64,000 nucleotides of DNA from a virus (lineage: Duplodnaviria; Caudoviricetes): positions 51,508-115,507 of IMG/VR virus record IMGVR_UViG_3300037067_016725. The stretch is one strand, 5' to 3'. The stretch's first letter is position 1. Each line of letters begins with the position of its first letter. The notes under the pieces were generated by a model. That model did no database searches and had not been told where the DNA came from. It saw only the letters and a list, made by a program, of their open reading frames with translations. Positions 1,142 to 62,873 of the stretch are shown piece after piece. Made by a program: the position numbers and the translations under genes.

Positions 1142-4100
1142 ATGAGTGACGGGATACTAAACAGTGCTAACATCGAAGAAGCCAATAGGGGTACTGCTAC
1201 ACTAGCCAGTAACCTTAATAGTGCTGCAGCAGCCCAGGCCAAGCTTACCTCCGAAGAAGAAAAGCAGTTAAAGGTAATACGGGAAGCCCTAAAAGATAAG
1301 AGATCTCTGACTCAAGAGGAAGAGAAGTACCATGACAGTGTCAAGAAGACTCTTTCAGCAGAGAGAAAGAGGGCGGACTATGTAGAGAGAACCAACAGGA
1401 GGATGGAGAGGTTCCTTAAGGAAGCTCCAGAGCTCGTTGGTGATCTAGACAAGAGCTTTGCTCTTGCAGGAAACAAGCTTGAGAAGTCTGTAAATGCTGA
1501 ATTGGAAAAGATGCTAAAGGACTTGGACAAAGCCCTTGAGTTAGGTACTGAGATAAAAAAAGTTGACCTGTTCAATATCGACGATCTGAAGAAAGCACAA
1601 AAGGTCATCAAGGGAATAAACGATGATCTAAGCAAGTTTGACGATAGAACCTTTGGGAAAGGGATGCTGAAGAGATCAGCCCAGATGAAGGGTGTTCTGG
1701 GGGGAGTTAGGTCTGGTTGGAAGGACAGAACCGGAAATGGCTGGAGAGAATCCGGAGAGTACCTTAAGAAAATGGGAGCCAACAGGATTGCAGCAAAGGG
1801 AGGGTCCTCCATAGCCGGCTCCGCTGCATCCATGATGGGTGGGGCGATGGCAGGTGCTGCCAAGTTTGTTCCTGTAGCTGGTGCCGTGGTGTCCGCGGTA
1901 TCCGCAATAAACGATGCCATAAATGCTGCAGATAGAATAGCTAAGGGTGCTCACAAAGATTACAAAGCCTTGGCAGGCCCCATATTTCAAGGTGGAAAGT
2001 TTGAAGGGGATTCTCGTAGGTATAACAAGGAGATTCGCAATGTAAGCAGGAATCTAGACCTTGGTGTAGACTATGAAGAATGGAATGCCATGTTTGAATC
2101 TATGAAAGGAGCAGGCATGACACTTCAGGGGGTTGAAAAGAACTTTGGTTCCTTTGGCGACACCATGGAGTCTGTGCAGCAGACAAGCGTTATGTTGGGA
2201 ACTAGCCTTGAGGTAACTGGGGACTACTTTGCCAAGCAATCACAGATGACAAGGTCTGGCCTAAAGACCATGGAAAAAGGATTTTTGGAAGTAGCCAGGG
2301 GTGCTAAAGTAGCGGGCATGGAAACCAATAAGTTTTATGATTATGTCTTACAGACTACAAACGCGATGGCGCTTTATGGGGACTACACTGCTGCCGCTGC
2401 CGTAGCCGTTAAAAAGGGAGCATCGAATGCTACAACCAGCCAGGAGAAGGGAGCACAGGCTGCCACGGATATAGCTTCCTGGTTAGGTAAGATGGATAAC
2501 TCTACGGCCATGAACATTGGTGCCTTTGTGAATAAGAGTGGTGCCAACGCCAACGACATTGCAGACAACCTGGCCAGTAAATTTGCTGAAAAGATGGCTT
2601 CTCTACAGGAGGGTTCCCAAGAGTGGCTTAAATATTCTAATCTAAAGAAGGATGTGGAATCGGTTAAAGCTTCCACAGGAAATAACGCTTTGAAACTGGG
2701 CATGCTCGCTAGAATGTCTAGCACAGAGGTAGGTCCCTCTATGCTTATTCAGGCGGTTAAGCAGCTAACCGGTGCAGGAAACAAAGACCTGCTGAGCATG
2801 ATGAGAAGTGGGAACACTGGGATGATGCTGCAGAAGGTAGAAGCCCTGGGACTTCCTAGGGAAATAATGGACCAGCTTACCCAGATGATGAAGGGTGCAG
2901 GTACTTCCGGTGATGTCTTTGCAAAGCATCTACAGCCCCTCTTTGACAAGATCCTTAAAATAGAGGATGAGGGGGAAAGGAAGAAGCAGATACAGGAGCT
3001 TCAGAATATAGCAGATATCCTTAAAAAGGGGGAAGCTGCAAGTACCGAACAGATGGATATAGCTGCTGCCTTCATGTCAAAACAGGGGATTTCTAGGGAA
3101 TTCTTCATGAACGAAGCGGTTAAGGATGCTATGACCATAGGAGAAACCCTTGATGCAAGCTTGGGTAACCTTCGAAAGGGAAAACCTACGGGGTTTAGCG
3201 TAGGGGCATTTGCTGAAAAGTCCGTAGCTAACCTGGCTGTGGAGAGCAGAGGATTCCTTCCCGCTTCGTTAAAGCCCGCAGATCAGAAGTCTGTGAATAA
3301 GCTCACAACTCCTTTGGAGAAGCTAACCAAGATAACAATGGACTCCATTAAGTTTGATGCTTCTGATAGCCAGCTGGCAAAGGTAGGGATAGCCATATCT
3401 GCATCTATTAGAGATGGTGTTGGTAATATCTATGACTGGTTAATGCACAAAGACGATATGAAGCCTAAGAAGGAAGCAGAAGCTTTCTTGAAGAGCGAAA
3501 AGATGACTGTCATAGGGCAAAGTACTCGAGCTCTCAACAGTATTGTAGAGGGTCAGGATGCCCTAGTTAAGAGACTCAACGCCATAGATGACCCTACAAA
3601 GAAAAAAGAAGAGATGGAAAAGGCTCATCGTAGAAATGAAGAGGCTTTCAAAACTGCTGTTGATGCTATCATTCAGAACACTGAAGGAAAGGATAAGGAA
3701 AGACTATCTCAGTACAAGTCAGAAGCTCTGAAAAAAGGAGGACCTGTAGCGGATATGGTGAGCTACTTCCTCGATAAAGCCCGTACAACAGAAAGCTGGA
3801 AATCCATGCAGGCTAAGACTAAGGGGACCCTGGAAGTCTTAAAAAATCAGAAAGGTGGAGACTTCTCGGAGAGCACCCTACTACAGATAGCTGACTTAGA
3901 ACAGACAGCTAAAGATCTTTATGATCTTCAGACGGGTTCCAAGTATAAGGACCCCATGCAGGATCGCAGTAACTGGGAGTTTCAGCCTCCTCCTGGTATG
4001 GTTTCGGATAATGGCACTCCTAAACTTCCCGCGGACTTTGGTAAAAACATTCCTGCAAATATGAAGTTGCTCCCACTAGGTAACTCCCCTACAAACACTT

Positions 4101-4216
4101 CCACTGCAGGTGGGAAGAACCCCATTAATATCACTGTAGTCGAAGACAACTCAAAGGAAGGTAAGGGTACCTGGAGTGCCTCCACCAACACAAACCTTTA
4201 CCCTTCCACTCCCTAA
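1142..4216 (+). CDS. Tape-measure-like protein
   Basis: 1024 aa, helical, Ala/Gly/Lys/Met-rich; coiled-coil N-terminus; hydrophobic Ala/Gly stretch (AAKFVPVAGAVVSAVSAI); precedes tube-initiator/hub/spike genes. Confidence 0.65.
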   Translation: MSDGILNSANIEEANRGTATLASNLNSAAAAQAKLTSEEEKQLKVIREALKDKRSLTQEEEKYHDSVKKTLSAERKRADYVERTNRRMERFLKEAPELVGDLDKSFALAGNKLEKSVNAELEKMLKDLDKALELGTEIKKVDLFNIDDLKKAQKVIKGINDDLSKFDDRTFGKGMLKRSAQMKGVLGGVRSGWKDRTGNGWRESGEYLKKMGANRIAAKGGSSIAGSAASMMGGAMAGAAKFVPVAGAVVSAVSAINDAINAADRIAKGAHKDYKALAGPIFQGGKFEGDSRRYNKEIRNVSRNLDLGVDYEEWNAMFESMKGAGMTLQGVEKNFGSFGDTMESVQQTSVMLGTSLEVTGDYFAKQSQMTRSGLKTMEKGFLEVARGAKVAGMETNKFYDYVLQTTNAMALYGDYTAAAAVAVKKGASNATTSQEKGAQAATDIASWLGKMDNSTAMNIGAFVNKSGANANDIADNLASKFAEKMASLQEGSQEWLKYSNLKKDVESVKASTGNNALKLGMLARMSSTEVGPSMLIQAVKQLTGAGNKDLLSMMRSGNTGMMLQKVEALGLPREIMDQLTQMMKGAGTSGDVFAKHLQPLFDKILKIEDEGERKKQIQELQNIADILKKGEAASTEQMDIAAAFMSKQGISREFFMNEAVKDAMTIGETLDASLGNLRKGKPTGFSVGAFAEKSVANLAVESRGFLPASLKPADQKSVNKLTTPLEKLTKITMDSIKFDASDSQLAKVGIAISASIRDGVGNIYDWLMHKDDMKPKKEAEAFLKSEKMTVIGQSTRALNSIVEGQDALVKRLNAIDDPTKKKEEMEKAHRRNEEAFKTAVDAIIQNTEGKDKERLSQYKSEALKKGGPVADMVSYFLDKARTTESWKSMQAKTKGTLEVLKNQKGGDFSESTLLQIADLEQTAKDLYDLQTGSKYKDPMQDRSNWEFQPPPGMVSDNGTPKLPADFGKNIPANMKLLPLGNSPTNTSTAGGKNPINITVVEDNSKEGKGTWSASTNTNLYPSTP

Positions 4217-4233
4217 TGAGAAACTGGTGACCT

Positions 4234-5448
4234 ATGGATTTTTATACTGATGCAGCACAGACACAGCAAGCAAGTGAGGCCAATCCCTTTCTCAGAGGGG
4301 ACCTTGTTTATGAGGCTTTGGGCAAGATAGCCAAGGATAGGGAGTACCTGATTACTGTAGATGAATTTCTAGGTTCCTTCTATAACTCGTTGATTGATAT
4401 TTCCGAGACGGACACCACCTCCTTGTGTGTAGACAAGCAGGCCCTTATCACTCTGTTACAGCCTGGGGATAGTGCTCCTTACCTTCACATCTCATTTATT
4501 CCAAGGATAATGGATCTTACCTCCACTACCCCTCCGGTATCGAAGGTTCCGGTGTCTTGGTCCGCCTCAATGAAGGAGCAGGTTAGCATCGCATGGCTTA
4601 AGACATACTCCCATGCGATCTTCATACCCTACAATGATCTTGTTGCATACACAACACAAACTCCCGGATTTTCTAAACAGGATGCTATTGATATCCTGAA
4701 CAGCATTTCTGTAGGGAACGATAGAAGGGAATCAGGAAAGGCAAGCACCCTGGTACTTAACCCTGTAGAGATTAAATCCTCTACAGAAGTCAATGACTTT
4801 ACTGAGCCAGGGCTTACCCAATATACAATGCTACAGAAAAGGCCTCCTGGGGATTTTTTCAAGGTTGAGCTTATAGCCCCTTCTGGAACTCCCGGAGGAA
4901 TAGAACGACATAATATTGCTACGGCAACAGGAGAGGAAGTAACCTCCCTAATTCTGAATATGTCCCCAAACTCGTTAGTAGTAAACTCTGCTAAAAAAGT
5001 GAATAGGGTTCAATCCTTTACCCGATGGGTGGAAGAGCACTGGGGAGATGAAATAGATCAGATTTCCTTTTCAGGAAATACCTTTGCCTTCATCACTGAG
5101 GATTATGGGTTGGCGGTTGTAAATAGGGACACGTCTAGTCCCTACAAAGAATTACAACATCTTGTAAATATATATCTGCTTAATGGGGCCGTTTACCATA
5201 AGGAAGAGGACAGCACCCAGGACAGGCGTATGTTCTGGGATTATACCTCTGTGGGTAAAGCCAGTATGACCATAAATAGGCACCCCAGGGCAGGTCTTAT
5301 CAGTATGAGGTTGTACATAAAACTGAGTTGTGACTTTGCCCAGTTTGTAGGGTACTTCGAATCCTTTGACATAACAGAGGATGCCGTAAATCCGTATAGA
5401 ATGGCATACACTGTATCCTTCAAATCTGAGTACACTAAGTGGTTGTGA
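4234..5448 (+). CDS. Baseplate/tail tube initiator-like protein
   Basis: C-terminal half has a tube-like beta pattern (LNMSPNSL...EEHWGDEIDQISFSG...GYFESFDITEDAVNPYRMAYTVSF) shared with the next ORF; lies between tape measure and hub. Confidence 0.55.
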   Translation: MDFYTDAAQTQQASEANPFLRGDLVYEALGKIAKDREYLITVDEFLGSFYNSLIDISETDTTSLCVDKQALITLLQPGDSAPYLHISFIPRIMDLTSTTPPVSKVPVSWSASMKEQVSIAWLKTYSHAIFIPYNDLVAYTTQTPGFSKQDAIDILNSISVGNDRRESGKASTLVLNPVEIKSSTEVNDFTEPGLTQYTMLQKRPPGDFFKVELIAPSGTPGGIERHNIATATGEEVTSLILNMSPNSLVVNSAKKVNRVQSFTRWVEEHWGDEIDQISFSGNTFAFITEDYGLAVVNRDTSSPYKELQHLVNIYLLNGAVYHKEEDSTQDRRMFWDYTSVGKASMTINRHPRAGLISMRLYIKLSCDFAQFVGYFESFDITEDAVNPYRMAYTVSFKSEYTKWL

Positions 5449-5449
5449 T

Positions 5450-7030
5450 ATGAACGAGAATGATTTAACATATGTATTTGGAAGGAAGCTGAAGGATGCA
5501 GGGGACACTGTTCTTCCTGATTCTGCTTTACCGACAATCGGAAATGGGATAGACACATATTCTCTCTCTATTAAAACACATACTGACGTTACCTCGGTTT
5601 TATCGGGTTTCAAAAAGGAGGGGTACCTTCCCTTCCTGATATCTCAGATAGACTCTAACAGAATAGCTAGCTCCTGGAAACTAGGGTTACTTGTAAATCC
5701 TTCTGATATAAATTTTGGTTCTTCACAAAATGTGGATACCAAGTTTGGACGCAATTCCCATATAGTGACATTGTGGGGTGCAAGCCAGTTAACCATTACT
5801 GGAAACGGATCTTCTGCAGCCTTTTTTGACCCTGACACGGGTTTGGCGGACGTATTCACTCGAAAGACTACTAAGGCTTATGCCAATCTAATGTCCTTTG
5901 TTCAGACAATGCGGAACAATGGGTATTATGCTCTATCCACCACTAAAATGGTGGAGGTGCGTAGGGAGAGCTCTTTCCAAGAGGGAGACAATAGTGCAAC
6001 GGGGGAAGATGCTGCTCAAAAAGAGAAGAATAGTCAGAATGTGTCTTCTGTAGAAAACACGGGAAACCCCTTGTCCTCCTCTAAAGATGGGGAATCATAC
6101 ATTACCCCTATTGTGGGAGGAAACAATAACAGAGTCATTCATGTTATGGACAACATGTCCATTTCTTATGGAGGCACTTCCTACTTAGGGTCCTTTGCAT
6201 CTTTCTCTATAGAAGCTTCGGGGGATTCCCCCTATTCATTAAAGTATTCCTTTGTTTTCATAGTGTCTGGTCTTGACGGGGATACCGTAGATGGCCATAT
6301 CAATGATGGAAATAATAAGGACACAGGGATAGTTGTAGGGAAGCAGGGGACTAACTTTATATATTCCCTTGGTATAAGTAAGGACTTCCTGGGAAAGGCC
6401 TCGGGAATGGCCAGCTATCTCATAAACACAGCAGATACCCAACTCTCCGGTAAATACTATTTGCCAACACCAACCAGTTATGGGGCCCTGGCAATCCCCC
6501 CAGAGTGGGAAGCTGTTGTTAAAAGTGCTGCACAGGCTAATGGAATCCTTCCCTCTTATGTAGCAACGGTTATTTGTAACGAGTCTGGTTGGAATCCTAA
6601 GGCAAAAGGTCCTGCAGTGACGGGGTCCACTACTGCCAGCAACAATGGTAGACATGCTTTGGGCCTAGGACAGTTTATGCCAGCCACAGCAGAGGATCAG
6701 CATCTTGCAGGAGCAATCGCCAACACTACCGATGACCCTAACAATACTCGGGATCAGAGGCTAGACCCGGTAAAAGCAATAAATGCTGTAGCCCGATACT
6801 TGGCCCAGCTTCTAAGGGGGCAGGGAAATGTGATTGAGCTGGGGGTAGCAGCATACAACGCGGGTCCGGGTACCGTGAACAATGCAGTAGCAAAATGTGG
6901 GGGAGATCGTGAAAATCCAAATGTGATTTCTCTTCTTCCTAGACAGGAAACAAAAGACTATGTTGCTAGGTTTTTAGCCAGGCAAAAAGGCTATTCTTAT
7001 TTAGATTCAACCGGTGTACTTCAGGAATAA
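5450..7030 (+). CDS. Tail-associated lytic transglycosylase (SLT/GH23) fused to tube-initiator-like domain
   Basis: SLT motifs ICNESGWNP, GLGQFMPATA, AAYNAGPG, ETKDYV at the C-terminus; N-terminal domain paralogous to 4234..5448. Confidence 0.85.
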   Translation: MNENDLTYVFGRKLKDAGDTVLPDSALPTIGNGIDTYSLSIKTHTDVTSVLSGFKKEGYLPFLISQIDSNRIASSWKLGLLVNPSDINFGSSQNVDTKFGRNSHIVTLWGASQLTITGNGSSAAFFDPDTGLADVFTRKTTKAYANLMSFVQTMRNNGYYALSTTKMVEVRRESSFQEGDNSATGEDAAQKEKNSQNVSSVENTGNPLSSSKDGESYITPIVGGNNNRVIHVMDNMSISYGGTSYLGSFASFSIEASGDSPYSLKYSFVFIVSGLDGDTVDGHINDGNNKDTGIVVGKQGTNFIYSLGISKDFLGKASGMASYLINTADTQLSGKYYLPTPTSYGALAIPPEWEAVVKSAAQANGILPSYVATVICNESGWNPKAKGPAVTGSTTASNNGRHALGLGQFMPATAEDQHLAGAIANTTDDPNNTRDQRLDPVKAINAVARYLAQLLRGQGNVIELGVAAYNAGPGTVNNAVAKCGGDRENPNVISLLPRQETKDYVARFLARQKGYSYLDSTGVLQE

Positions 7031-7037
7031 CAGAACC

Positions 7038-9548
7038 ATGGCGAATACAGGTATTTATACTCTACAGGAGTTCAAAAACAGACAGGCCCTCAAACTGGCT
7101 CCTGATATGTTTATTACGGTCATGGGGAAGACTGATGCTAGGGTGTTGCTGTCCGAATCCAGCATAGTTGAAAAGACTTCTGATGGGGAACTTATTGAGA
7201 ATCAGACAGTAGCCAATGTAAAGAACTTTGACTTCAAAGGAGGCCTCCTAAGTGTTAACACTGATTGTGCTGCACAGCCAGGGGCTGGAACTTGTACAAT
7301 ATCTTTTTCGTGCCCAACATACGATAGCTTAAACGAGAACTACTATATCACTCTACCGAACGGGACTAAATCCTTATTCTTCCAGTCTATGATGGAGGTT
7401 AGGGTATATTCGAAGGGTAGGTTCTTGAGCAAGGATGGAACCCCCATTTACTACCCTGTGTTTTGGGGATTTATTACCACAGTTAATGAGGATGTCCAAG
7501 GAAATAACGCTAATATCTCCTTGGCCTGTAGGGATTGTCTTGGCTGGTGGGAGTACCAATATGTGAATATTGTTAACTCTAGTGTTCAGGAGAAGTACGG
7601 TGGTAACCCTCCAGGCAATGCAGGTAGCCTTTATAGATTCATGAACCCTTGGGCATGCATCCTTAACTTGTTCAGACAGACTGGCTTTGACAATTTCATA
7701 TTCCCTACCTTCACGAAGGGGTCAGATCTGAGCCAGACAGAAGCTCCTTACACCTTGTCCAATCAGGACGGGACTAACAACAAAGGTGCCTATGAGTTGT
7801 TAGCAGGAGCCGTTATTAAGGATTGGAAAGACAGATATGGCTTGGGGTCTGTACTTCCTACAAGTGGAAAGAAAAACTTTTCAAACTTAGAGATGTATGG
7901 TATTAGTGGTCGTATAGACCTCAACTCTACCAATGAGCTTACCGCGGTAAGAGAAAAGGATATAGGAGATCAGCAAGCCTCCGCAGCTAGTAGGAAGGAT
8001 ACCAATGGAGTACCCTCGGCAACGGACGCTGCTAGGAAAATATACAAGGATAACTATGATGCAAAAAAGGTAGCTACTGAGAATACTTCAGGAACTTCGG
8101 GGGATCAAGTATCTTCAGGGTATGAAGAGGAAGGAGATCCCTTCTATGTAGTTTCCCGTTTTCAGCAGGCAGGTGATGATGTTGTTCCTGACTTTGGTAT
8201 AATGGGTGAAACCCTTCCCTTTGGTAACATGGAAGAATACCAAGTAGGTACGGAACCCGTTAAATACACCAAGCTTGAGACAGCCTCCCGTGTGGCGGAT
8301 AGCATTGGGTTTGAATTCTTTCAGGATACTAATGGCGTCTTTGTTTTCAAACCTCCCTTCTTCAACATGAATGTTATCAGAAACAAGATCTATGTGATTA
8401 AGCTGGAGGACATCCTTTCCTTTAATGCTGCAGAGGATTCCACACAGGTGGTTACCTTTATGGAGGCAACGGCTCCACTAATCCAGCTAGGCACTGCTGC
8501 CCCATATCTAGCCTATCATGTTGACTTTGCTATGATGGACAAGTATGGAATAAGGGAGAAGTCTGCTACCCTTATGTATGGTGGTTCTCCACGTAGAATA
8601 AGGGCTATGGCATGCAGTGAAATGGCAAAGGCAAATATCAATGTGTTCACTGCCAGCCTTACTATTGTGCATAGGCCCGAGCTAAGGGTAGGATACCCTA
8701 TATACATCGACCACTTGGATACCTTCTATTATGTTAAGTCCATAAACCATTCCCTTGCTTTCGGGTCCAGCGCCACTACAACCCTGTCCTTATGTGCTCG
8801 GAGGACAAGAGTGTATAACAACAATGGTGAACTGATGAGGGGTTATATATACAAACCCTTTGACTCCTTCAAGTATGGGGACAACCTGTCCACTTCACAG
8901 ATAGTAAAGGAAGAAAATAAAGAGGTCATGCGTGTTTTTGATAGTAGGGATGCCTCGAAAAAGCTGGAGGCAGCCAGGGCAATGGATGACTTAGGGGTGG
9001 GGACAAAAGGAGAGTCCAACCCTAGTGCCGCATATGCTAGGAAGCCTACAGCCACTGATAGGTATTACAGGGCAAATAATCTTACAGCTTCACCTACCCC
9101 CGGCTTTTGGGTTCCTGTACAAGCGACCTCTATGAGGAATCTCCAGGATACCTCTAGTGATGCAAACAAACCTGTGGCTTTTGATGCAACTCGGTTTAGT
9201 GAACTGTATATGTTCCAGGAGCAGTCCGACCCGAGCGAGCCCAACTTGACTGCAGAGGAATCTGCAAAGGGGTCCCACCCCTACACTGACATAAACGGGT
9301 TCCAACATATAGGAGGGTTCCCTTATGGTGCTACTCTTATTATGGGGCCAGACTCTACCATAAGAGGATCATCCTCTGGGTCAGATATATCAGAAGATGT
9401 GGCTACCCTGGATTTACCTGGATTAGAGGGAGCCAGCAAGACTGTGGCTCCGGTGGTTACCCCCGCAAATGCAGGTATGACAATTGCAGGGACAAAAGAA
9501 GAAACCACTGATAAGTCTGATGATGTTGCTAGTATAGACTTGGCTTAG
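7038..9548 (+). CDS. Baseplate hub protein (T4 gp27/VgrG N-terminal-like)
   Basis: Hub-like motifs VFWGFITTV, IGFEFFQDTNGVFVFKPP, RPELRVGYPIYI..YYVKSINHS; ATG at 7038 preferred over GTG 7014; followed by spike gene. Confidence 0.7.
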   Translation: MANTGIYTLQEFKNRQALKLAPDMFITVMGKTDARVLLSESSIVEKTSDGELIENQTVANVKNFDFKGGLLSVNTDCAAQPGAGTCTISFSCPTYDSLNENYYITLPNGTKSLFFQSMMEVRVYSKGRFLSKDGTPIYYPVFWGFITTVNEDVQGNNANISLACRDCLGWWEYQYVNIVNSSVQEKYGGNPPGNAGSLYRFMNPWACILNLFRQTGFDNFIFPTFTKGSDLSQTEAPYTLSNQDGTNNKGAYELLAGAVIKDWKDRYGLGSVLPTSGKKNFSNLEMYGISGRIDLNSTNELTAVREKDIGDQQASAASRKDTNGVPSATDAARKIYKDNYDAKKVATENTSGTSGDQVSSGYEEEGDPFYVVSRFQQAGDDVVPDFGIMGETLPFGNMEEYQVGTEPVKYTKLETASRVADSIGFEFFQDTNGVFVFKPPFFNMNVIRNKIYVIKLEDILSFNAAEDSTQVVTFMEATAPLIQLGTAAPYLAYHVDFAMMDKYGIREKSATLMYGGSPRRIRAMACSEMAKANINVFTASLTIVHRPELRVGYPIYIDHLDTFYYVKSINHSLAFGSSATTTLSLCARRTRVYNNNGELMRGYIYKPFDSFKYGDNLSTSQIVKEENKEVMRVFDSRDASKKLEAARAMDDLGVGTKGESNPSAAYARKPTATDRYYRANNLTASPTPGFWVPVQATSMRNLQDTSSDANKPVAFDATRFSELYMFQEQSDPSEPNLTAEESAKGSHPYTDINGFQHIGGFPYGATLIMGPDSTIRGSSSGSDISEDVATLDLPGLEGASKTVAPVVTPANAGMTIAGTKEETTDKSDDVASIDLA

Positions 9549-60776: not shown

Positions 60777-61280
60777 CTACACGCTGTACAGATCCGTAAC
60801 TACTCCGGTCAACTCTAGCGGTGACGAAAGAGGTTTCCAGTCCTGTATGAGCTTGCTGTCCTTAGGGGATCCACTAGGAGAAACCGCAATCGTTATATGG
60901 GGTACGCCACTAAAGGAGGGGACGCTTGTTTGCAACTTCACAGCCATTGCCAAATCACTTATACCCCAGGACACTGCCTGTAGCGTCACTTTCTTGCCTT
61001 TGTTCATATCATAAAAAGTTTTGAAAGTCCCATCCTTTAGCTTTCCATAATATATGGTCATATGGTGGGCATAGATACTCCAGCCTTTGGGGATTTCTCT
61101 TTCAAAAGATTTAAGTAGCCTATCCTTAGACATGTTATCAAGCAGGACACCCCAAAGGACGACATTGCTGCTGGCTTCAAGGGTATTAGCTATCACATCT
61201 ATTTCAGAGGCAAGACCTGCTAAACCTAAACCCTCAACTTCTGAGGCTACCTTGTCCAAGATGCTTGTAAGAATTTTCAA
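60777..61280 (-). CDS. 2H phosphoesterase (tRNA-ligase CPDase-like)
   Basis: Two HxT motifs AHHMTI and PHITIAV, PKDS; start uncertain (TTG 61280 or 61292; track gives 61385). Confidence 0.75.
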   Translation of the reverse strand: MKILTSILDKVASEVEGLGLAGLASEIDVIANTLEASSNVVLWGVLLDNMSKDRLLKSFEREIPKGWSIYAHHMTIYYGKLKDGTFKTFYDMNKGKKVTLQAVSWGISDLAMAVKLQTSVPSFSGVPHITIAVSPSGSPKDSKLIQDWKPLSSPLELTGVVTDLYSV

Positions 61281-61400
61281 GTAAATAACCAAAGATGAAG
61301 TTTTGTAAGGGAAAGTTCTTATTAGTTGAATATCTTTAGAGGGTCCACTGAATATCCTTAATGGAGGTGTCCCATGACATAGCATCGCATTCTACGAGCT

Positions 61401-61691
61401 ATGCAAATACTTATACCTAACCGGATCACACCAAGCCGGTACACAAAAGTCGTCTCCTTGATGAGGAAGATGGGTTCTCCTGTTATACACTGCCTAGAGA
61501 TAAGGCCAGGGTATTACTTTGCCTTGGAAGGATCCCACAGGACTACTGCAGCCTTAGAGTTGGGCTTAGAACCTATTCTAGTAGTAGTTGATAACCTAGA
61601 GGGGGAAGAACCCTTGCAGGTAACTTCCAGAAAGGAAGTGCGTGTTAGGGAGATGCGAGGTTTATGCCTTGAATTCCCAGATTGGATATAG
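61401..61691 (+). CDS. Small ParB-N/Srx-like domain protein
   Basis: SLMRKMGSPVI...YFALEGSHRTTAALELG. Confidence 0.6.
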   Translation: MQILIPNRITPSRYTKVVSLMRKMGSPVIHCLEIRPGYYFALEGSHRTTAALELGLEPILVVVDNLEGEEPLQVTSRKEVRVREMRGLCLEFPDWI

Positions 61692-61764
61692 CCCCGGTAG
61701 GGCTCGAACCTACGCATGCCGACTTCAAAGGACGGTGCCGTAAAACCAACTTGGCTACGGGGCT
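61689..61764 (-). tRNA. tRNA-Gln (TTG)
   Basis: AGCCCCG/CGGGGCT acceptor, loop CTTTGAA, GTAGG-TTCGAGC-CCTAC T arm; one T-T mismatch in anticodon stem. Confidence 0.9.
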
Positions 61765-61768
61765 GTAG

Positions 61769-61841
61769 TAGATCCGCCCTGAATTGAACAGAGACTTAGG
61801 AGGTCAGAGCTCCTCGTGCAAAACCTTTACACTACGAATCT
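61769..61841 (-). tRNA. tRNA-Gln (CTG)
   Basis: AGATTCG/CGGATCT acceptor, AGGAG-CTCTGAC-CTCCT anticodon arm, CTCTG-TTCAATT-CAGGG T arm. Confidence 0.9.
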
Positions 61842-61849
61842 ATGTGTAG

Positions 61850-61922
61850 TAGCAGGAGGGGGATTCGAACCCACCAGCCTTGTGCGTATGAAGCACCTGC
61901 TCAACCGTTGAGCTATCCTGCC
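61850..61922 (-). tRNA. tRNA-Met (CAT), elongator-type
   Basis: GGCAGGA/TCCTGCT acceptor, GCTC/GAGC D stem, loop TTCATAC, TTCGAAT T loop; lacks initiator features. Confidence 0.85.
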
Positions 61923-61930
61923 AAAACTAA

Positions 61931-62014
61931 TACGTCACCCAGGAGTCGAACCTGTCAGCACCGCCCGCCATTTTAACTGAGAACCTTATAAGAGCCCCGG
62001 CTGGTTTGTGACGC
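61931..62014 (-). ncRNA. Non-canonical tRNA-like RNA with TAT (Ile) anticodon-like loop
   Basis: GCGTCAC/GTGACGT-A acceptor stem, CAGG-TTCGACT-CCTG T arm, CTTATAA loop; no canonical D arm. Confidence 0.7.
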
Positions 62015-62020
62015 ATAAAC

Positions 62021-62054
62021 AAAAAAGCCCCCTGGTTCATCACCAGAGGGCTTT
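62021..62054 (-). terminator. Attenuator terminator upstream of tRNA cluster
   Basis: Minus strand AAAGCCCTCTGGT-gatga-ACCAGGGGGCTTTTTT, 6 nt before the first tRNA-like gene. Confidence 0.85.
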
Positions 62055-62074
62055 CCTTAATCCTTTCTTTGCTA

Positions 62075-62152
62075 TCAGCAAATAACAGGTGGAAGGGCTC
62101 TGGAGGCACCAGTGCTCATCATCTGTATTTGCTGTTGCATTACGAAGTTCAT
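62075..62152 (-). CDS. Attenuator leader peptide MNFVMQQQIQMMSTGASRALPPVIC (not in ORF track)
   Basis: Codons 5-12 are ATG CAA CAG CAA ATA CAG ATG ATG; overlaps alternative hairpins; ATG lies 7 nt after the -10 element. Confidence 0.8.
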   Translation of the reverse strand: MNFVMQQQIQMMSTGASRALPPVIC

Positions 62153-62157
62153 GTTTC

Positions 62158-62188
62158 CAAATATACCACTACCTTTTATCAAAAACAA
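62158..62188 (-). promoter_or_regulatory. Promoter of leader/tRNA operon
   Basis: Minus strand TTGTTT-N17-TATATT with TG extension; the -10 also reads TATATTTG (TAnnTTTG-type). Confidence 0.65.
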
Positions 62189-62192
62189 GAGG

Positions 62193-62873
62193 CTACTCAA
62201 AAATAATATCCGAGATTCTCAAAGAGCGATCCTCTGGTAAATCTACCAGTAAAGACTGATTTTGATTTACACAACAAAACAAAGTCTCCTTGAGCCTCTT
62301 CGTTTCATTGACATGGTGATGGCCACAGATCCACAACTCGGGCGCATGATACTTCCACAGCTCATCCAAGGCCTGGTTAGTGCGAGAGATCTTTGGAAAT
62401 TTCTCAAGATAGTATTCAAAGGCATAGGGAGCCGTGTGTGAAATGACTACTCGGGGTTTCTTGCTGCTGATCAAGTCTACCATTGTACTCAGAGCGATAA
62501 TGGAAAGTTCCTCCTCGGGCCACCAGTCTAACCCAGGGGTACGAAAATCCTTATCTACAGACATGGCTCCCGATACATAGCCAACCCCATTGGAATCCAC
62601 CCCATAGTCCCCCAAGTAGTTAGGGTGTCCTATTACAGAGGAGGGGCAGTCGTGGTTTCCACGAATTATTTTTAGATTCCCTGGCAATACCGTGGCTTCC
62701 TGAGGACTGTACTCAGAGGAAGAGATACCCAGATCAATATCATCATGTAGGGGTGGGAAACCAAACCCGAAGTCCCCAAGCTGATAAATGCAGGAGTCCT
62801 TAGGAAGACCCCGTATAGTGCTCAACATGTCTTGGAAATGTCCATGGACATCTCCTAAAAAAGCGAATTTCAT
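62193..62873 (-). CDS. Calcineurin-like metallophosphoesterase
   Basis: GDVHG, GDFG, GNHD, SHTAP, GHHH; ATG 62873 preferred. Confidence 0.9.
   Translation of the reverse strand: MKFAFLGDVHGHFQDMLSTIRGLPKDSCIYQLGDFGFGFPPLHDDIDLGISSSEYSPQEATVLPGNLKIIRGNHDCPSSVIGHPNYLGDYGVDSNGVGYVSGAMSVDKDFRTPGLDWWPEEELSIIALSTMVDLISSKKPRVVISHTAPYAFEYYLEKFPKISRTNQALDELWKYHAPELWICGHHHVNETKRLKETLFCCVNQNQSLLVDLPEDRSLRISDIIFE

What the first reader, a model, noticed from the sequence alone, without database searches (positions are those of the whole stretch)
61931..62014. Non-canonical tRNA-like RNA with a UAU anticodon loop and no normal D arm
Seen: 84 nt with a 7-bp acceptor stem, discriminator A and a T arm. After the acceptor strand comes AAAC, then a CAGC/GCTG helix enclosing a GU-rich arm (GGGGCT-CTTATAA-GGTTCT) and a 20-nt segment containing TGG, so the D-loop-like element follows the anticodon arm instead of preceding it. 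Established: most bacteria read AUA with lysidine-modified CAU, and UAU anticodons are rare. The single ATA among the leader's control codons is internal evidence that the UAU loop matters. Inference: it is either a working tRNA-Ile with a rearranged fold or a decoy/repair substrate for tRNA-targeting enzymes.
Basis: partly seen in the sequence, partly recalled or inferred. Interest (0 to 1): 0.78.

Follow-up and report, generated by a model that had tools for sequence, protein, structure and literature searches.

The report
Rewired phage isoleucine tRNA gene
This 84-base phage gene is very probably a working tRNA for the isoleucine codon AUA whose D-arm is split around the anticodon arm instead of forming the textbook cloverleaf hairpin, a conserved design that standard tRNA finders miss.

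Summary
The element is real. It lies on the minus strand at 62014-61931, at the head of a phage tRNA array (Met-CAU, Gln-CUG, Gln-UUG). ARAGORN and Rfam do not call it. It is not a wreck. I found 14 further distinct homologs in phage tRNA arrays, plus an unannotated one in the cultured phage crAss001. A covariance model built without the candidate or its closest relative scores it 69 bits (E about 4e-20). Covariation supports an 8/4 acceptor/T branch and a 6-bp anticodon stem with a canonical 7-nt loop. It also supports a 6-bp "D-prime" helix whose strands lie on either side of the anticodon arm. A short second helix crosses D-prime, giving a pseudoknot. Family anticodons are UAU, CAU, GUA and UCU. 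In three near-complete phage tRNA sets, Tyr is absent among ARAGORN's calls, and the family member there carries GUA. That points to real decoding rather than decoy use. This phage uses ATA for 34% of its Ile codons. I found no paper describing this wiring. This scan has reported the same class before on other DNA. Charging, processing and amino-acid identity remain untested.

The parts
62007..62014 (-). Acceptor stem 5' strand (RNA positions 1-8). Positions 1-7 pair with 77-83. Position 8 (A) faces G76.
   Evidence: Seven pairs are kept in 100% of cells, with both-side changes at all 7 pairs. The 8th pair is standard in 12 of 15 homologs and is A.G in this one and its two nearest relatives.
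62005..62006 (-). Two-nucleotide linker (positions 9-10).
   Evidence: Alignments A3 and A4.
61999..62004 (-). D-prime helix 5' strand (positions 11-16). It runs straight into the anticodon stem.
   Evidence: It pairs with 46-51. Across homologs 98-99% of cells are paired and 3 pairs change on both sides. RNAalifold predicts the helix de novo on the MAFFT alignment. Here 5 of 6 pairs form, with A13 opposite G49.
61980..61998 (-). Anticodon arm (positions 17-35): a 6-bp GU-rich stem and the 7-nt loop CUUAUAA. The anticodon UAU is at 61988-61990.
   Evidence: All 6 stem pairs covary. The arm is identical in L275, whose acceptor stem differs by three compensatory pair changes. The loop matches the canonical Y32-U33-NNN-A37-A38 pattern.
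61970..61979 (-). A-rich 10-nt bulge (positions 36-45). Its first 4 nt are the 5' strand of the short V-prime helix.
   Evidence: A helix of at least 4 bp forms with the nucleotides just before the T stem in 14 of 14 distinct homologs. Only 20% of mismatched partners do so (permutation 0/20000).
61964..61969 (-). D-prime helix 3' strand (positions 46-51).
61960..61963 (-). CGGU (positions 52-55). The central GG is invariant across the family. I infer it is the counterpart of G18-G19, which dock on the T loop.
   Evidence: The GG columns are invariant in A4. The role is inference only.
61955..61959 (-). V-prime helix 3' strand (positions 56-59) plus A60. V-prime crosses D-prime, which makes a pseudoknot.
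   Evidence: In fixed alignment columns only 64% of cells pair, because the register shifts between subgroups.
61940..61954 (-). T arm (positions 61-75): a 4-bp stem and the loop UUCGACU.
   Evidence: 96.7% of cells are paired and the outer pair covaries.
61931..61939 (-). G76, the acceptor 3' strand (positions 77-83) and discriminator A84. No CCA is encoded.
   Evidence: The three canonical tRNAs of the array also lack an encoded CCA.

Best explanation
The element is a functional phage tRNA with anticodon UAU that reads the codon AUA, most likely as isoleucine. It belongs to a conserved, apparently undescribed class of phage tRNAs with non-cloverleaf wiring. The acceptor/T branch is of the 8/4 type: 8 layers plus a 4-bp T stem. 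There is no D hairpin. Instead, six nucleotides right after the acceptor strand (11-16) run directly into the 6-bp anticodon stem and pair with six nucleotides that lie after the anticodon arm (46-51). This makes one long stacked helix with a 10-nt bulge on its 3' side. The start of that bulge pairs with the nucleotides just before the T stem, which produces a pseudoknot. An invariant GG between the two helices probably docks on the T loop as G18-G19 do in ordinary tRNAs. Shown here: family membership, the helices through covariation, the position in tRNA arrays, and heavy ATA use by this phage. Inferred: RNase P and 3' processing, CCA addition and charging by host enzymes, an L-shaped fold, and delivery to the ribosome. 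My odds are about 0.95 that this is a maintained structured RNA of this family, about 0.7 that it decodes in translation, and about 0.55 that the amino acid is Ile.
For: (1) A covariance model built from 13 homologs, leaving out the candidate and its nearest relative, scores it 69.1 bits (E 4e-20). The window's four canonical tRNAs do not reach E<=1. In 2.2 Mb of phage loci, members score at least 60 bits and everything else at most 32. (2) On the MAFFT alignment, 93.5% of cells pair with covariation score 0.744, against 0.196 for shuffles. D-prime is 98.3% paired. RNAalifold predicts the same helices. The CM alignment of 15 sequences gives 98.9% for D-prime. (3) Against L275 the anticodon arm is identical, while three acceptor pairs changed on both sides. 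That is purifying selection on structure, not decay. (4) Every member lies inside a phage tRNA array on the same strand as the tRNAs. In L125 (36 tRNAs), L172 (34) and L145 (25), ARAGORN calls no tRNA-Tyr, and the family member there carries GUA. crAss001 annotates 23 tRNAs in the fetched region 1500-9000, none Tyr, and holds an unannotated GUA member in a gap of its array. (5) ATA makes up 34% of Ile codons (19.2 per 1000) in 81 long ORFs of this phage. No other UAU tRNA was found in the 115-kb record. (6) The element is identical in contigs from four studies, while the leader and terminator beside it carry SNPs. (7) The upstream 25-codon ORF has a run of eight codons made up only of ATG, CAA, CAG and one ATA. 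These match the four anticodons of the array.
Against: No experiment or read-level RNA data shows processing, CCA addition or charging; the RNA runs available were contigs only. In this member the 8th acceptor layer is A.G and one D-prime pair is A opposite G. Four of the six anticodon-stem pairs are G.U. The single-sequence fold is no more stable than shuffles. Irregular allo-tRNAs with UAU anticodons were inactive in E. coli translation tests (PMC5389517), so an odd UAU tRNA need not decode. An unmodified U34 could also misread AUG. One of the phage's two CAU tRNAs might be a lysidine-type tRNA-Ile2, which would make this gene redundant and weaken the leader-codon argument. The homologs were found with patterns that required the loop or the G-rich motif, so their invariance is partly due to how they were ascertained.
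Confidence: 0.7

Rival explanations
1. It is a tRNA-like RNA that is made and folded but not used for decoding. It would act instead as a decoy or sponge for a host tRNA-targeting nuclease or modification enzyme, or as a regulatory RNA.
For: Phage tRNA arrays are discussed as anti-defence devices (established knowledge). Irregular allo-tRNA-UAU species failed translation tests and sit near toxin-antitoxin genes (PMC5389517). The family's anticodons (Tyr, Arg, Ile/Met) overlap known targets of anticodon nucleases; this is from memory and was not tested. A metallophosphoesterase gene lies directly upstream.
Against: The GUA members fill the Tyr gap in near-complete tRNA sets, which a decoy would not need to do. 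The 12-layer acceptor/T branch, A73, the canonical T loop and, in several members, an encoded CCA are all features of decoding. This phage uses ATA heavily.
Confidence: 0.2
2. It is a working tRNA that reads AUA but is charged with an amino acid other than Ile, giving missense or recoded decoding.
For: The same scaffold carries anticodons of four amino acids, so identity must rest on few elements. Most bacterial IleRS enzymes recognise G34 or lysidine rather than U34 (established knowledge). Another phage tRNA(UAU) family seen here carries a GAU-bearing extra arm that this element lacks.
Against: A73 and A37-A38 fit Ile. I saw no sign of an altered code: ORFs in the window read normally under table 11. 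The leader ORF treats ATA as one of the array's own codons.
Confidence: 0.07
3. It is a decayed pseudo-tRNA, a remnant of a canonical tRNA that lost its D arm.
For: No tRNA finder calls it. The anticodon stem is GU-rich and there are two non-standard pairs.
Against: The same architecture recurs in 15 distinct sequences, with compensatory changes in every helix. The GU-rich arm is identical in a distant relative. The element shows no differences across four metagenomes.
Confidence: 0.03
4. The fold is: a CAGC/GCUG helix (12-15 with 56-59) closing a junction that holds the anticodon arm and a 20-nt loop.
For: Four Watson-Crick pairs can form in this sequence.
Against: Across homologs only 65% of cells pair, and the nearest relative L275 keeps 2 of 4 pairs. 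The competing helices D-prime and V-prime use the same nucleotides and are conserved.
Confidence: 0.05

Closest known systems
Canonical bacterial and phage elongator tRNA (Rfam RF00005), in particular AUA-reading tRNA-Ile with a UAU anticodon
   Same: It shares the acceptor stem with A73, the T arm with a TPsiC-type loop, and a 7-nt anticodon loop with U33 and A37. It sits in a phage tRNA array, and its presumed job is to decode AUA.
   Different: There is no D hairpin. The D-stem-like helix is made from strands on either side of the anticodon arm. The branch is 8/4 rather than 7/5, the anticodon stem has 6 bp, and the core is pseudoknotted. RF00005 and ARAGORN do not call it.
tRNA-Sec and allo-tRNAs with 8/4 or 9/3 branches (Mukai et al. 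2017, PMC5389517)
   Same: Both have a 12-layer acceptor/T branch split 8/4, a 6-bp anticodon stem and a 6-bp D-type helix. UAU is a common anticodon among allo-tRNAs. Both occur in phages and in irregular tRNA polycistrons.
   Different: Allo-tRNAs keep a D stem-loop with a tetraloop before the anticodon arm, a hairpin V-arm, and G73 or U73. This element has none of these.
Metazoan mitochondrial D-armless tRNAs, such as mt-tRNA-Ser(AGY)
   Same: No D hairpin lies between the acceptor stem and the anticodon stem, yet these are working tRNAs (established knowledge).
   Different: The mitochondrial forms replace the arm with a short loop and shrink overall. This element keeps a 6-bp D-type helix by long-range pairing and has full length. 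ARAGORN's mitochondrial mode does not call it. There is no sign of common descent.
Phage tRNA(UAU) of 88-95 nt with a hairpin variable arm (seen here in more than 120 IMG/VR contigs)
   Same: Both share the loop CUUAUAA, a 6-bp anticodon stem, often a G1.U72 pair, A73, and a phage-array context.
   Different: Those tRNAs have a normal D hairpin and a V-arm hairpin whose 7-nt loop carries GAU, and ARAGORN calls them. They score at most 30 bits with the family model.

Membership tests
Canonical tRNA (Rfam RF00005 / ARAGORN cloverleaf) | Acceptor stem closed by the 5' and 3' ends, with a discriminator base | tested here: met
   Positions 1-7 pair with 77-83 and A84 follows. The stem covaries across homologs.
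Canonical tRNA (Rfam RF00005 / ARAGORN cloverleaf) | T arm with a GTTCGA-type loop, and an anticodon arm with a 7-nt loop containing U33 | tested here: met
   The T stem has 4 bp rather than 5.
Canonical tRNA (Rfam RF00005 / ARAGORN cloverleaf) | D-arm hairpin between the acceptor strand and the anticodon arm | tested here: not met
   Only 9 nt separate the 7-bp acceptor stem from the anticodon stem.
Canonical tRNA (Rfam RF00005 / ARAGORN cloverleaf) | Reaches the family's score threshold (29 bits), or is called by ARAGORN | tested here: not met
   There is no RF00005 match even at E<=10. ARAGORN does not call it down to ps60 or in mitochondrial mode.
Rewired-D-arm phage tRNA class (defined here by models R1-R3; no published definition found) | Significant score against a model built without the candidate | tested here: met
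   69.1 bits, E 4e-20, with R3 built from 13 homologs.
Rewired-D-arm phage tRNA class (defined here by models R1-R3; no published definition found) | 6-bp helix between the nucleotides just 5' of the anticodon stem and nucleotides 3' of the anticodon arm | tested here: met
   In the candidate 5 of 6 pairs form. Across the family 98-99% of cells pair and 3 pairs covary.
Rewired-D-arm phage tRNA class (defined here by models R1-R3; no published definition found) | 8/4 acceptor/T branch | tested here: inconclusive
   The 4-bp T stem is met. The 8th acceptor layer is A.G here and in L275 and L264, but is a standard pair in 12 of 15 members.
Rewired-D-arm phage tRNA class (defined here by models R1-R3; no published definition found) | Short helix joining the start of the bulge to the nucleotides before the T stem (pseudoknot), and an invariant GG between the two helices | tested here: met
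   Up to 5 pairs can form in the candidate, the first of which shares U35 with the anticodon stem. At least 4 bp form in 14 of 14 members against 20% of mismatched partners. The GG columns are invariant.
Rewired-D-arm phage tRNA class (defined here by models R1-R3; no published definition found) | Aminoacylation and use in translation | not testable with these tools
   The support is indirect only: the Tyr gap in arrays and codon usage.
Allo-tRNA (PMC5389517) | D stem-loop with a long stem and tetraloop, a long hairpin V-arm, and G73 or U73 | tested here: not met
   There is no D hairpin, no V hairpin, and the discriminator is A.
Phage V-arm tRNA(UAU) | D hairpin plus a V-arm hairpin with a 7-nt loop carrying GAU | tested here: not met
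   The candidate has neither.
Bacterial Y RNA / other Rfam tRNA-like families | A match to the Rfam model | tested here: not met
   No such match appears at E<=10 in 61600-62200.

The most novel reading that the evidence does not exclude
The rewired tRNAs are a topological isomer of tRNA. They keep the same L-shape and the same job, but are built with a permuted, pseudoknotted core. Phages would maintain this form because it escapes host nucleases or enzymes that recognise the normal D-arm and core. In this phage, synthesis of the AUA, AUG and CAR decoders would in addition be gated by a leader peptide made of exactly those codons, so that the phage makes its own tRNAs when the host's supply fails.
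Probability: 0.2. Interest if true: 0.92.

Novelty: new variant of a known kind. Interest (0 to 1): 0.8.

Why it matters
The cloverleaf is treated as universal outside mitochondria. A conserved phage tRNA class that splits the D-arm around the anticodon arm and closes it as a pseudoknot would show that the L-shape can be reached by a different strand connectivity. It would explain "missing" tRNAs in phage annotations, such as Tyr in crAss001-like sets and AUA decoders here. It would also show a blind spot in tRNA finders. It offers a natural scaffold for orthogonal tRNA engineering, and a way to ask which enzymes (RNase P, the CCA enzyme, synthetases, EF-Tu, anticodon nucleases) really need the D-arm. 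The crAss001 member makes the class testable in a cultured system.

Tried and rejected
- The contigs of the 82-85% identical phosphoesterase relatives (P0001, P0002), which probably carry the orthologous array, could not be fetched.
- **Protein-based searches for close relatives of the phage.**
  - Phosphoesterase relatives in IMG/VR were at most 39% identical and had no adjacent tRNAs.
  - ORF 60777-61385 and the DNA polymerase gave no relatives.
  - The single metagenome scan returned only relatives at 43% identity or less.
- **DNA searches that found nothing.**
  - An exact 22-mer of the T arm plus acceptor strand had no hit in IMG/VR.
  - blastn of the array, and of two family members, against GenBank phages gave only canonical tRNA hits or nothing.
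- **Spurious genome hits.** Three of the six prokaryote-genome pattern hits (L274, L276, L278) were ordinary tRNAs on the opposite strand, and two (L277, L279) showed no tRNA-like features. Only L275 was a family member.
- **Folds considered and dropped.**
  - My own first register, 10-12:53-55 plus 14-16:50-52, which is the single-sequence MFE. It fails in the CAU subgroup.
  - Readings as a class II tRNA, a tRNA-Sec, or an opposite-strand tRNA.
- **crAss001.** Model R2 with default filters found nothing in this phage. The member appeared only with filters off.
- **RNA evidence.** All four runs laid were assembled contigs. One is a metatranscriptome that covers parts of the array. Contigs cannot show transcript ends, CCA or expression, so I draw nothing from them on processing.
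- **Per-sequence shuffle test of V-prime.** It had no power, so I replaced it with a partner-swap test.
- **Literature.** Searches found no description of this wiring. They cover open-access papers only, so absence is weak evidence.

Full report
**Context.** The window is the last 64 kb of a 115.5-kb IMG/VR virus record. CheckV estimates it about 25% complete, and its GC content is 46%. Genes run almost entirely on the plus strand (76 of 81 long ORFs). Near the right end a minus-strand block holds, in order:
- a calcineurin-like metallophosphoesterase at 62936-62193;
- a 25-codon ORF at 62152-62075;
- a strong hairpin with a U-tract at 62054-62019;
- the 84-nt element at 62014-61931;
- tRNA-Met(CAU), tRNA-Gln(CUG) and tRNA-Gln(UUG).

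**The observation.**
- A 7-bp acceptor stem starts with a G.U pair, and the discriminator is A.
- The T stem has 4 bp and a standard T loop.
- A GU-rich 6-bp hairpin carries a perfect anticodon-type loop holding UAU.
- No hairpin lies between the acceptor strand and that arm.
- A G-rich stretch of about 20 nt containing UGG follows the arm.

ARAGORN does not call it, even at relaxed thresholds or in mitochondrial mode. Rfam gives no tRNA or other family match at E<=10. Its minimum free energy is no better than that of shuffled sequences (z +0.53). Taken alone, it could pass for a decayed tRNA.

**Finding relatives.** Protein-based routes to close relatives of the phage failed or were blocked.

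ARAGORN runs on the loci fetched along the way showed a large phage family of 88-95-nt tRNA(UAU). It has the same anticodon loop, a normal D hairpin and a hairpin variable arm. A scan for the loop plus the candidate's T-loop variant then turned up elements built like the candidate rather than like that family. Two further pattern scans added more. A first covariance model found still others that lack the exact motifs.

In all there are 15 distinct sequences, including the candidate. With the final model every member scores at least 60 bits. Everything else in 2.2 Mb of phage loci, hundreds of canonical tRNAs included, scores at most 32. ARAGORN at default settings and the Rfam tRNA model called none of the members I tested.

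As an independent membership test I built a model from 13 homologs, leaving out the candidate and its nearest relative L275. It scores the candidate 69.1 bits (E 4e-20) and L275 73.7 bits. The window's canonical tRNAs do not reach E<=1.

**Structure.** On a plain MAFFT alignment of ten members, my proposed structure pairs 93.5% of cells. Its covariation score is 0.744, against 0.196 for shuffles and at most 0.14 for slid partners. RNAalifold run on the same alignment predicts the same helices with no input from me. In candidate numbering the helices are as follows.
- **Acceptor stem, 1-7:77-83.** All seven pairs covary. Position 8 pairs with position 76 in 12 of 15 members (C-G, G-C, U.G, A-U), giving an 8/4 acceptor/T branch. 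The candidate, L275 and L264 have A.G at that layer.
- **D-prime, 11-16:46-51.** It is 98-99% paired. The three inner pairs take three to five different standard pair types each across subgroups. In the candidate one of the six pairs is A opposite G.
- **Anticodon stem, 17-22:30-35.** All pairs covary.
- **T stem, 61-64:72-75.**
- **V-prime.** This short helix joins the nucleotides just after the anticodon stem to those just before the T stem.
  - Its register shifts between subgroups, so fixed columns show only 64% of cells paired.
  - A helix of at least 4 bp is present in all 14 distinct sequences, including crAss001, but in only 20% of swapped partners (0 of 20000 permutations).
  - Because the sequences are related, this test is generous.

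D-prime and V-prime cross, so together they form a pseudoknot. The four nucleotides between them have an invariant central GG. I infer that this GG plays the part of G18-G19.

D-prime's 5' strand continues directly into the anticodon stem. The two helices should therefore stack into one rod of about 12 bp with a 10-nt bulge. This is the counterpart of the D-stem/anticodon-stem stack of a normal tRNA, reached with a different strand order. The L-shape itself is inferred, not shown.

It is paired in only 65% of cells, so I reject it.

**The candidate is maintained, not decaying.**
- Its GU-rich anticodon arm is identical, base for base, in L275. That element comes from a different phage array, and its acceptor stem differs by three changes on both sides that all keep the pair.
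- Contigs from four studies (freshwater, wastewater RNA, landfill, wetland) each cover part of the element, one of them all of it, with no difference from the window.
- In those same contigs the leader and terminator beside it carry SNPs, and a nearby coding stretch differs at 21 of 156 positions in one run.
- Loose ends in two runs show related strains with a different tRNA beside tRNA-Met. One strain has a copy of the candidate's 3' part, with 3 differences in 46 nt, next to a different class-II-like tRNA. The array is therefore modular.

**Function.**
- Family anticodon loops are all canonical. They read UAU (5 distinct sequences), CAU (3), GUA (5, plus crAss001) and UCU (2).
- Every member lies inside a tRNA array on the tRNAs' strand.
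- The strongest functional clue comes from large arrays.
  - L125 (36 ARAGORN tRNAs) and L172 (34) cover every amino acid except Tyr.
  - L145 (25 tRNAs) also lacks Tyr.
  - In each of the three, the family member carries GUA.
- GenBank's crAss001 record annotates 23 tRNAs in the region I fetched (1500-9000), and none is Tyr. A 170-nt unannotated gap in its array holds a more distant GUA member with the same D-prime and V-prime layout (34.6 bits with filters off).
- In arrays with UAU or CAU members, ARAGORN finds no other UAU tRNA within the fetched loci.
- This phage uses ATA for 34% of its Ile codons, 19.2 per 1000, and its 115-kb record holds no other UAU tRNA.
- The upstream short ORF contains eight consecutive codons drawn only from ATG, CAA, CAG and a single ATA. 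These are the four codon types the array's four anticodons would read. Given seven Met and Gln codons, the chance that the odd one is ATA is a few percent. This is modest internal support, and it weakens if one of the CAU tRNAs is a lysidine-type tRNA-Ile2.

Taken together, I think a working AUA-decoding tRNA is the best reading (about 0.7), with Ile the likely amino acid (about 0.55). A non-decoding decoy or regulator is the main rival (about 0.2). A pseudogene is essentially excluded.

**Comparison with what is known.** The element fails the defining D-hairpin feature and the score thresholds of canonical tRNA models.
- It shares the 8/4 branch, the 6-bp anticodon stem and the 6-bp D-type helix with tRNA-Sec and the allo-tRNAs of Mukai et al. 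It lacks their D stem-loop, hairpin V-arm and G73/U73 (PMC5389517). That paper also reports that irregular allo-tRNA-UAU species were inactive in E. coli, which is a caution for the decoding claim.
- Mitochondrial D-armless tRNAs are a functional analogy, not relatives.
- I found no paper describing a D-arm split around the anticodon arm. The search covers open-access text only.

This scan has already reported the same rewired class on other genomes, as Ile, Arg and Tyr forms and including the crAss001 lead. I reached the structure before reading those notes. I checked the crAss001 claim myself and otherwise treat the notes as leads only.

**Limits.**
- The homolog set is small. Part of it was ascertained with patterns that fixed the loop and the G-rich motif.
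- Alignment A4 is fitted to the model.
- No read-level RNA data were available.
- One tool (look-up of encoding contigs) was closed.

Noticed in passing
L010:994-1087, L011:2100-2193, L045:4411-4503, L052:9822-9914, and L098-L217: A widespread phage tRNA(UAU) family of 88-95 nt has a hairpin variable arm whose 7-nt loop carries GAU at loop positions 3-5. GAU is the anticodon of the major tRNA-Ile. In a sample not selected on that loop, 21 of 22 loops have it, and a pattern scan hit at least 120 IMG/VR contigs. It looks like a second, synthetase-facing 'anticodon'. I found no description of it.
   Followed up: partly
window 62019-62152, minus strand: A 25-codon ORF contains a run of eight codons made only of ATG, CAA, CAG and ATA. 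A strong terminator hairpin follows, ending 5 nt before the rewired tRNA. SNPs in two metagenomes keep the hairpin paired (62031, 62052, 62054), and one changes codon 20 from Leu to Arg. The codon run itself is unchanged.
   Followed up: partly
MH675552 4141-4235 (L286:2642-2736): An unannotated 95-nt element with a GUA loop and the same split-D-arm layout lies in a gap of the crAss001 tRNA array. The 23 tRNAs annotated in the fetched region include no tRNA-Tyr.
   Followed up: partly
window 61920-61965 and 61923: Loose ends of metagenome contigs show related strains in which the neighbours in the array differ. In one, a different tRNA 3' end sits upstream of tRNA-Met. In another, a class-II-like tRNA lies downstream of a 93%-identical copy of the candidate's 3' part.
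   Followed up: no
window 60777-61385, minus strand: The 202-aa ORF downstream of the array gave no Pfam or PHROG match at E<=0.01 and no relatives in IMG/VR. The 2H-phosphoesterase label in a sibling note is therefore not confirmed by these searches.
   Followed up: partly
window 61849-61922 and 61931-62014: Both the array's tRNA-Met(CAU) and the rewired tRNA start with a G1.U72 wobble pair and have A73. Many of the V-arm tRNA(UAU) genes do as well.
   Followed up: no
L264:6423-6494 and L275:2985-3056: About 65 nt upstream of the UAU members in these two arrays lies a conserved, weakly scoring tRNA (34-38 bits with RF00005) inside a longer conserved stretch. It may be another irregular tRNA.
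   Followed up: no
window 61960-61970: The conserved stretch UGG-Y-GGGCGGU is the reverse complement of a tRNA 3' end of the form ACCGCCC-R-CCA. For that reason the pattern scan also hit ordinary tRNAs on the opposite strand in L274, L276 and L278. This may be coincidence or a trace of origin.
   Followed up: no
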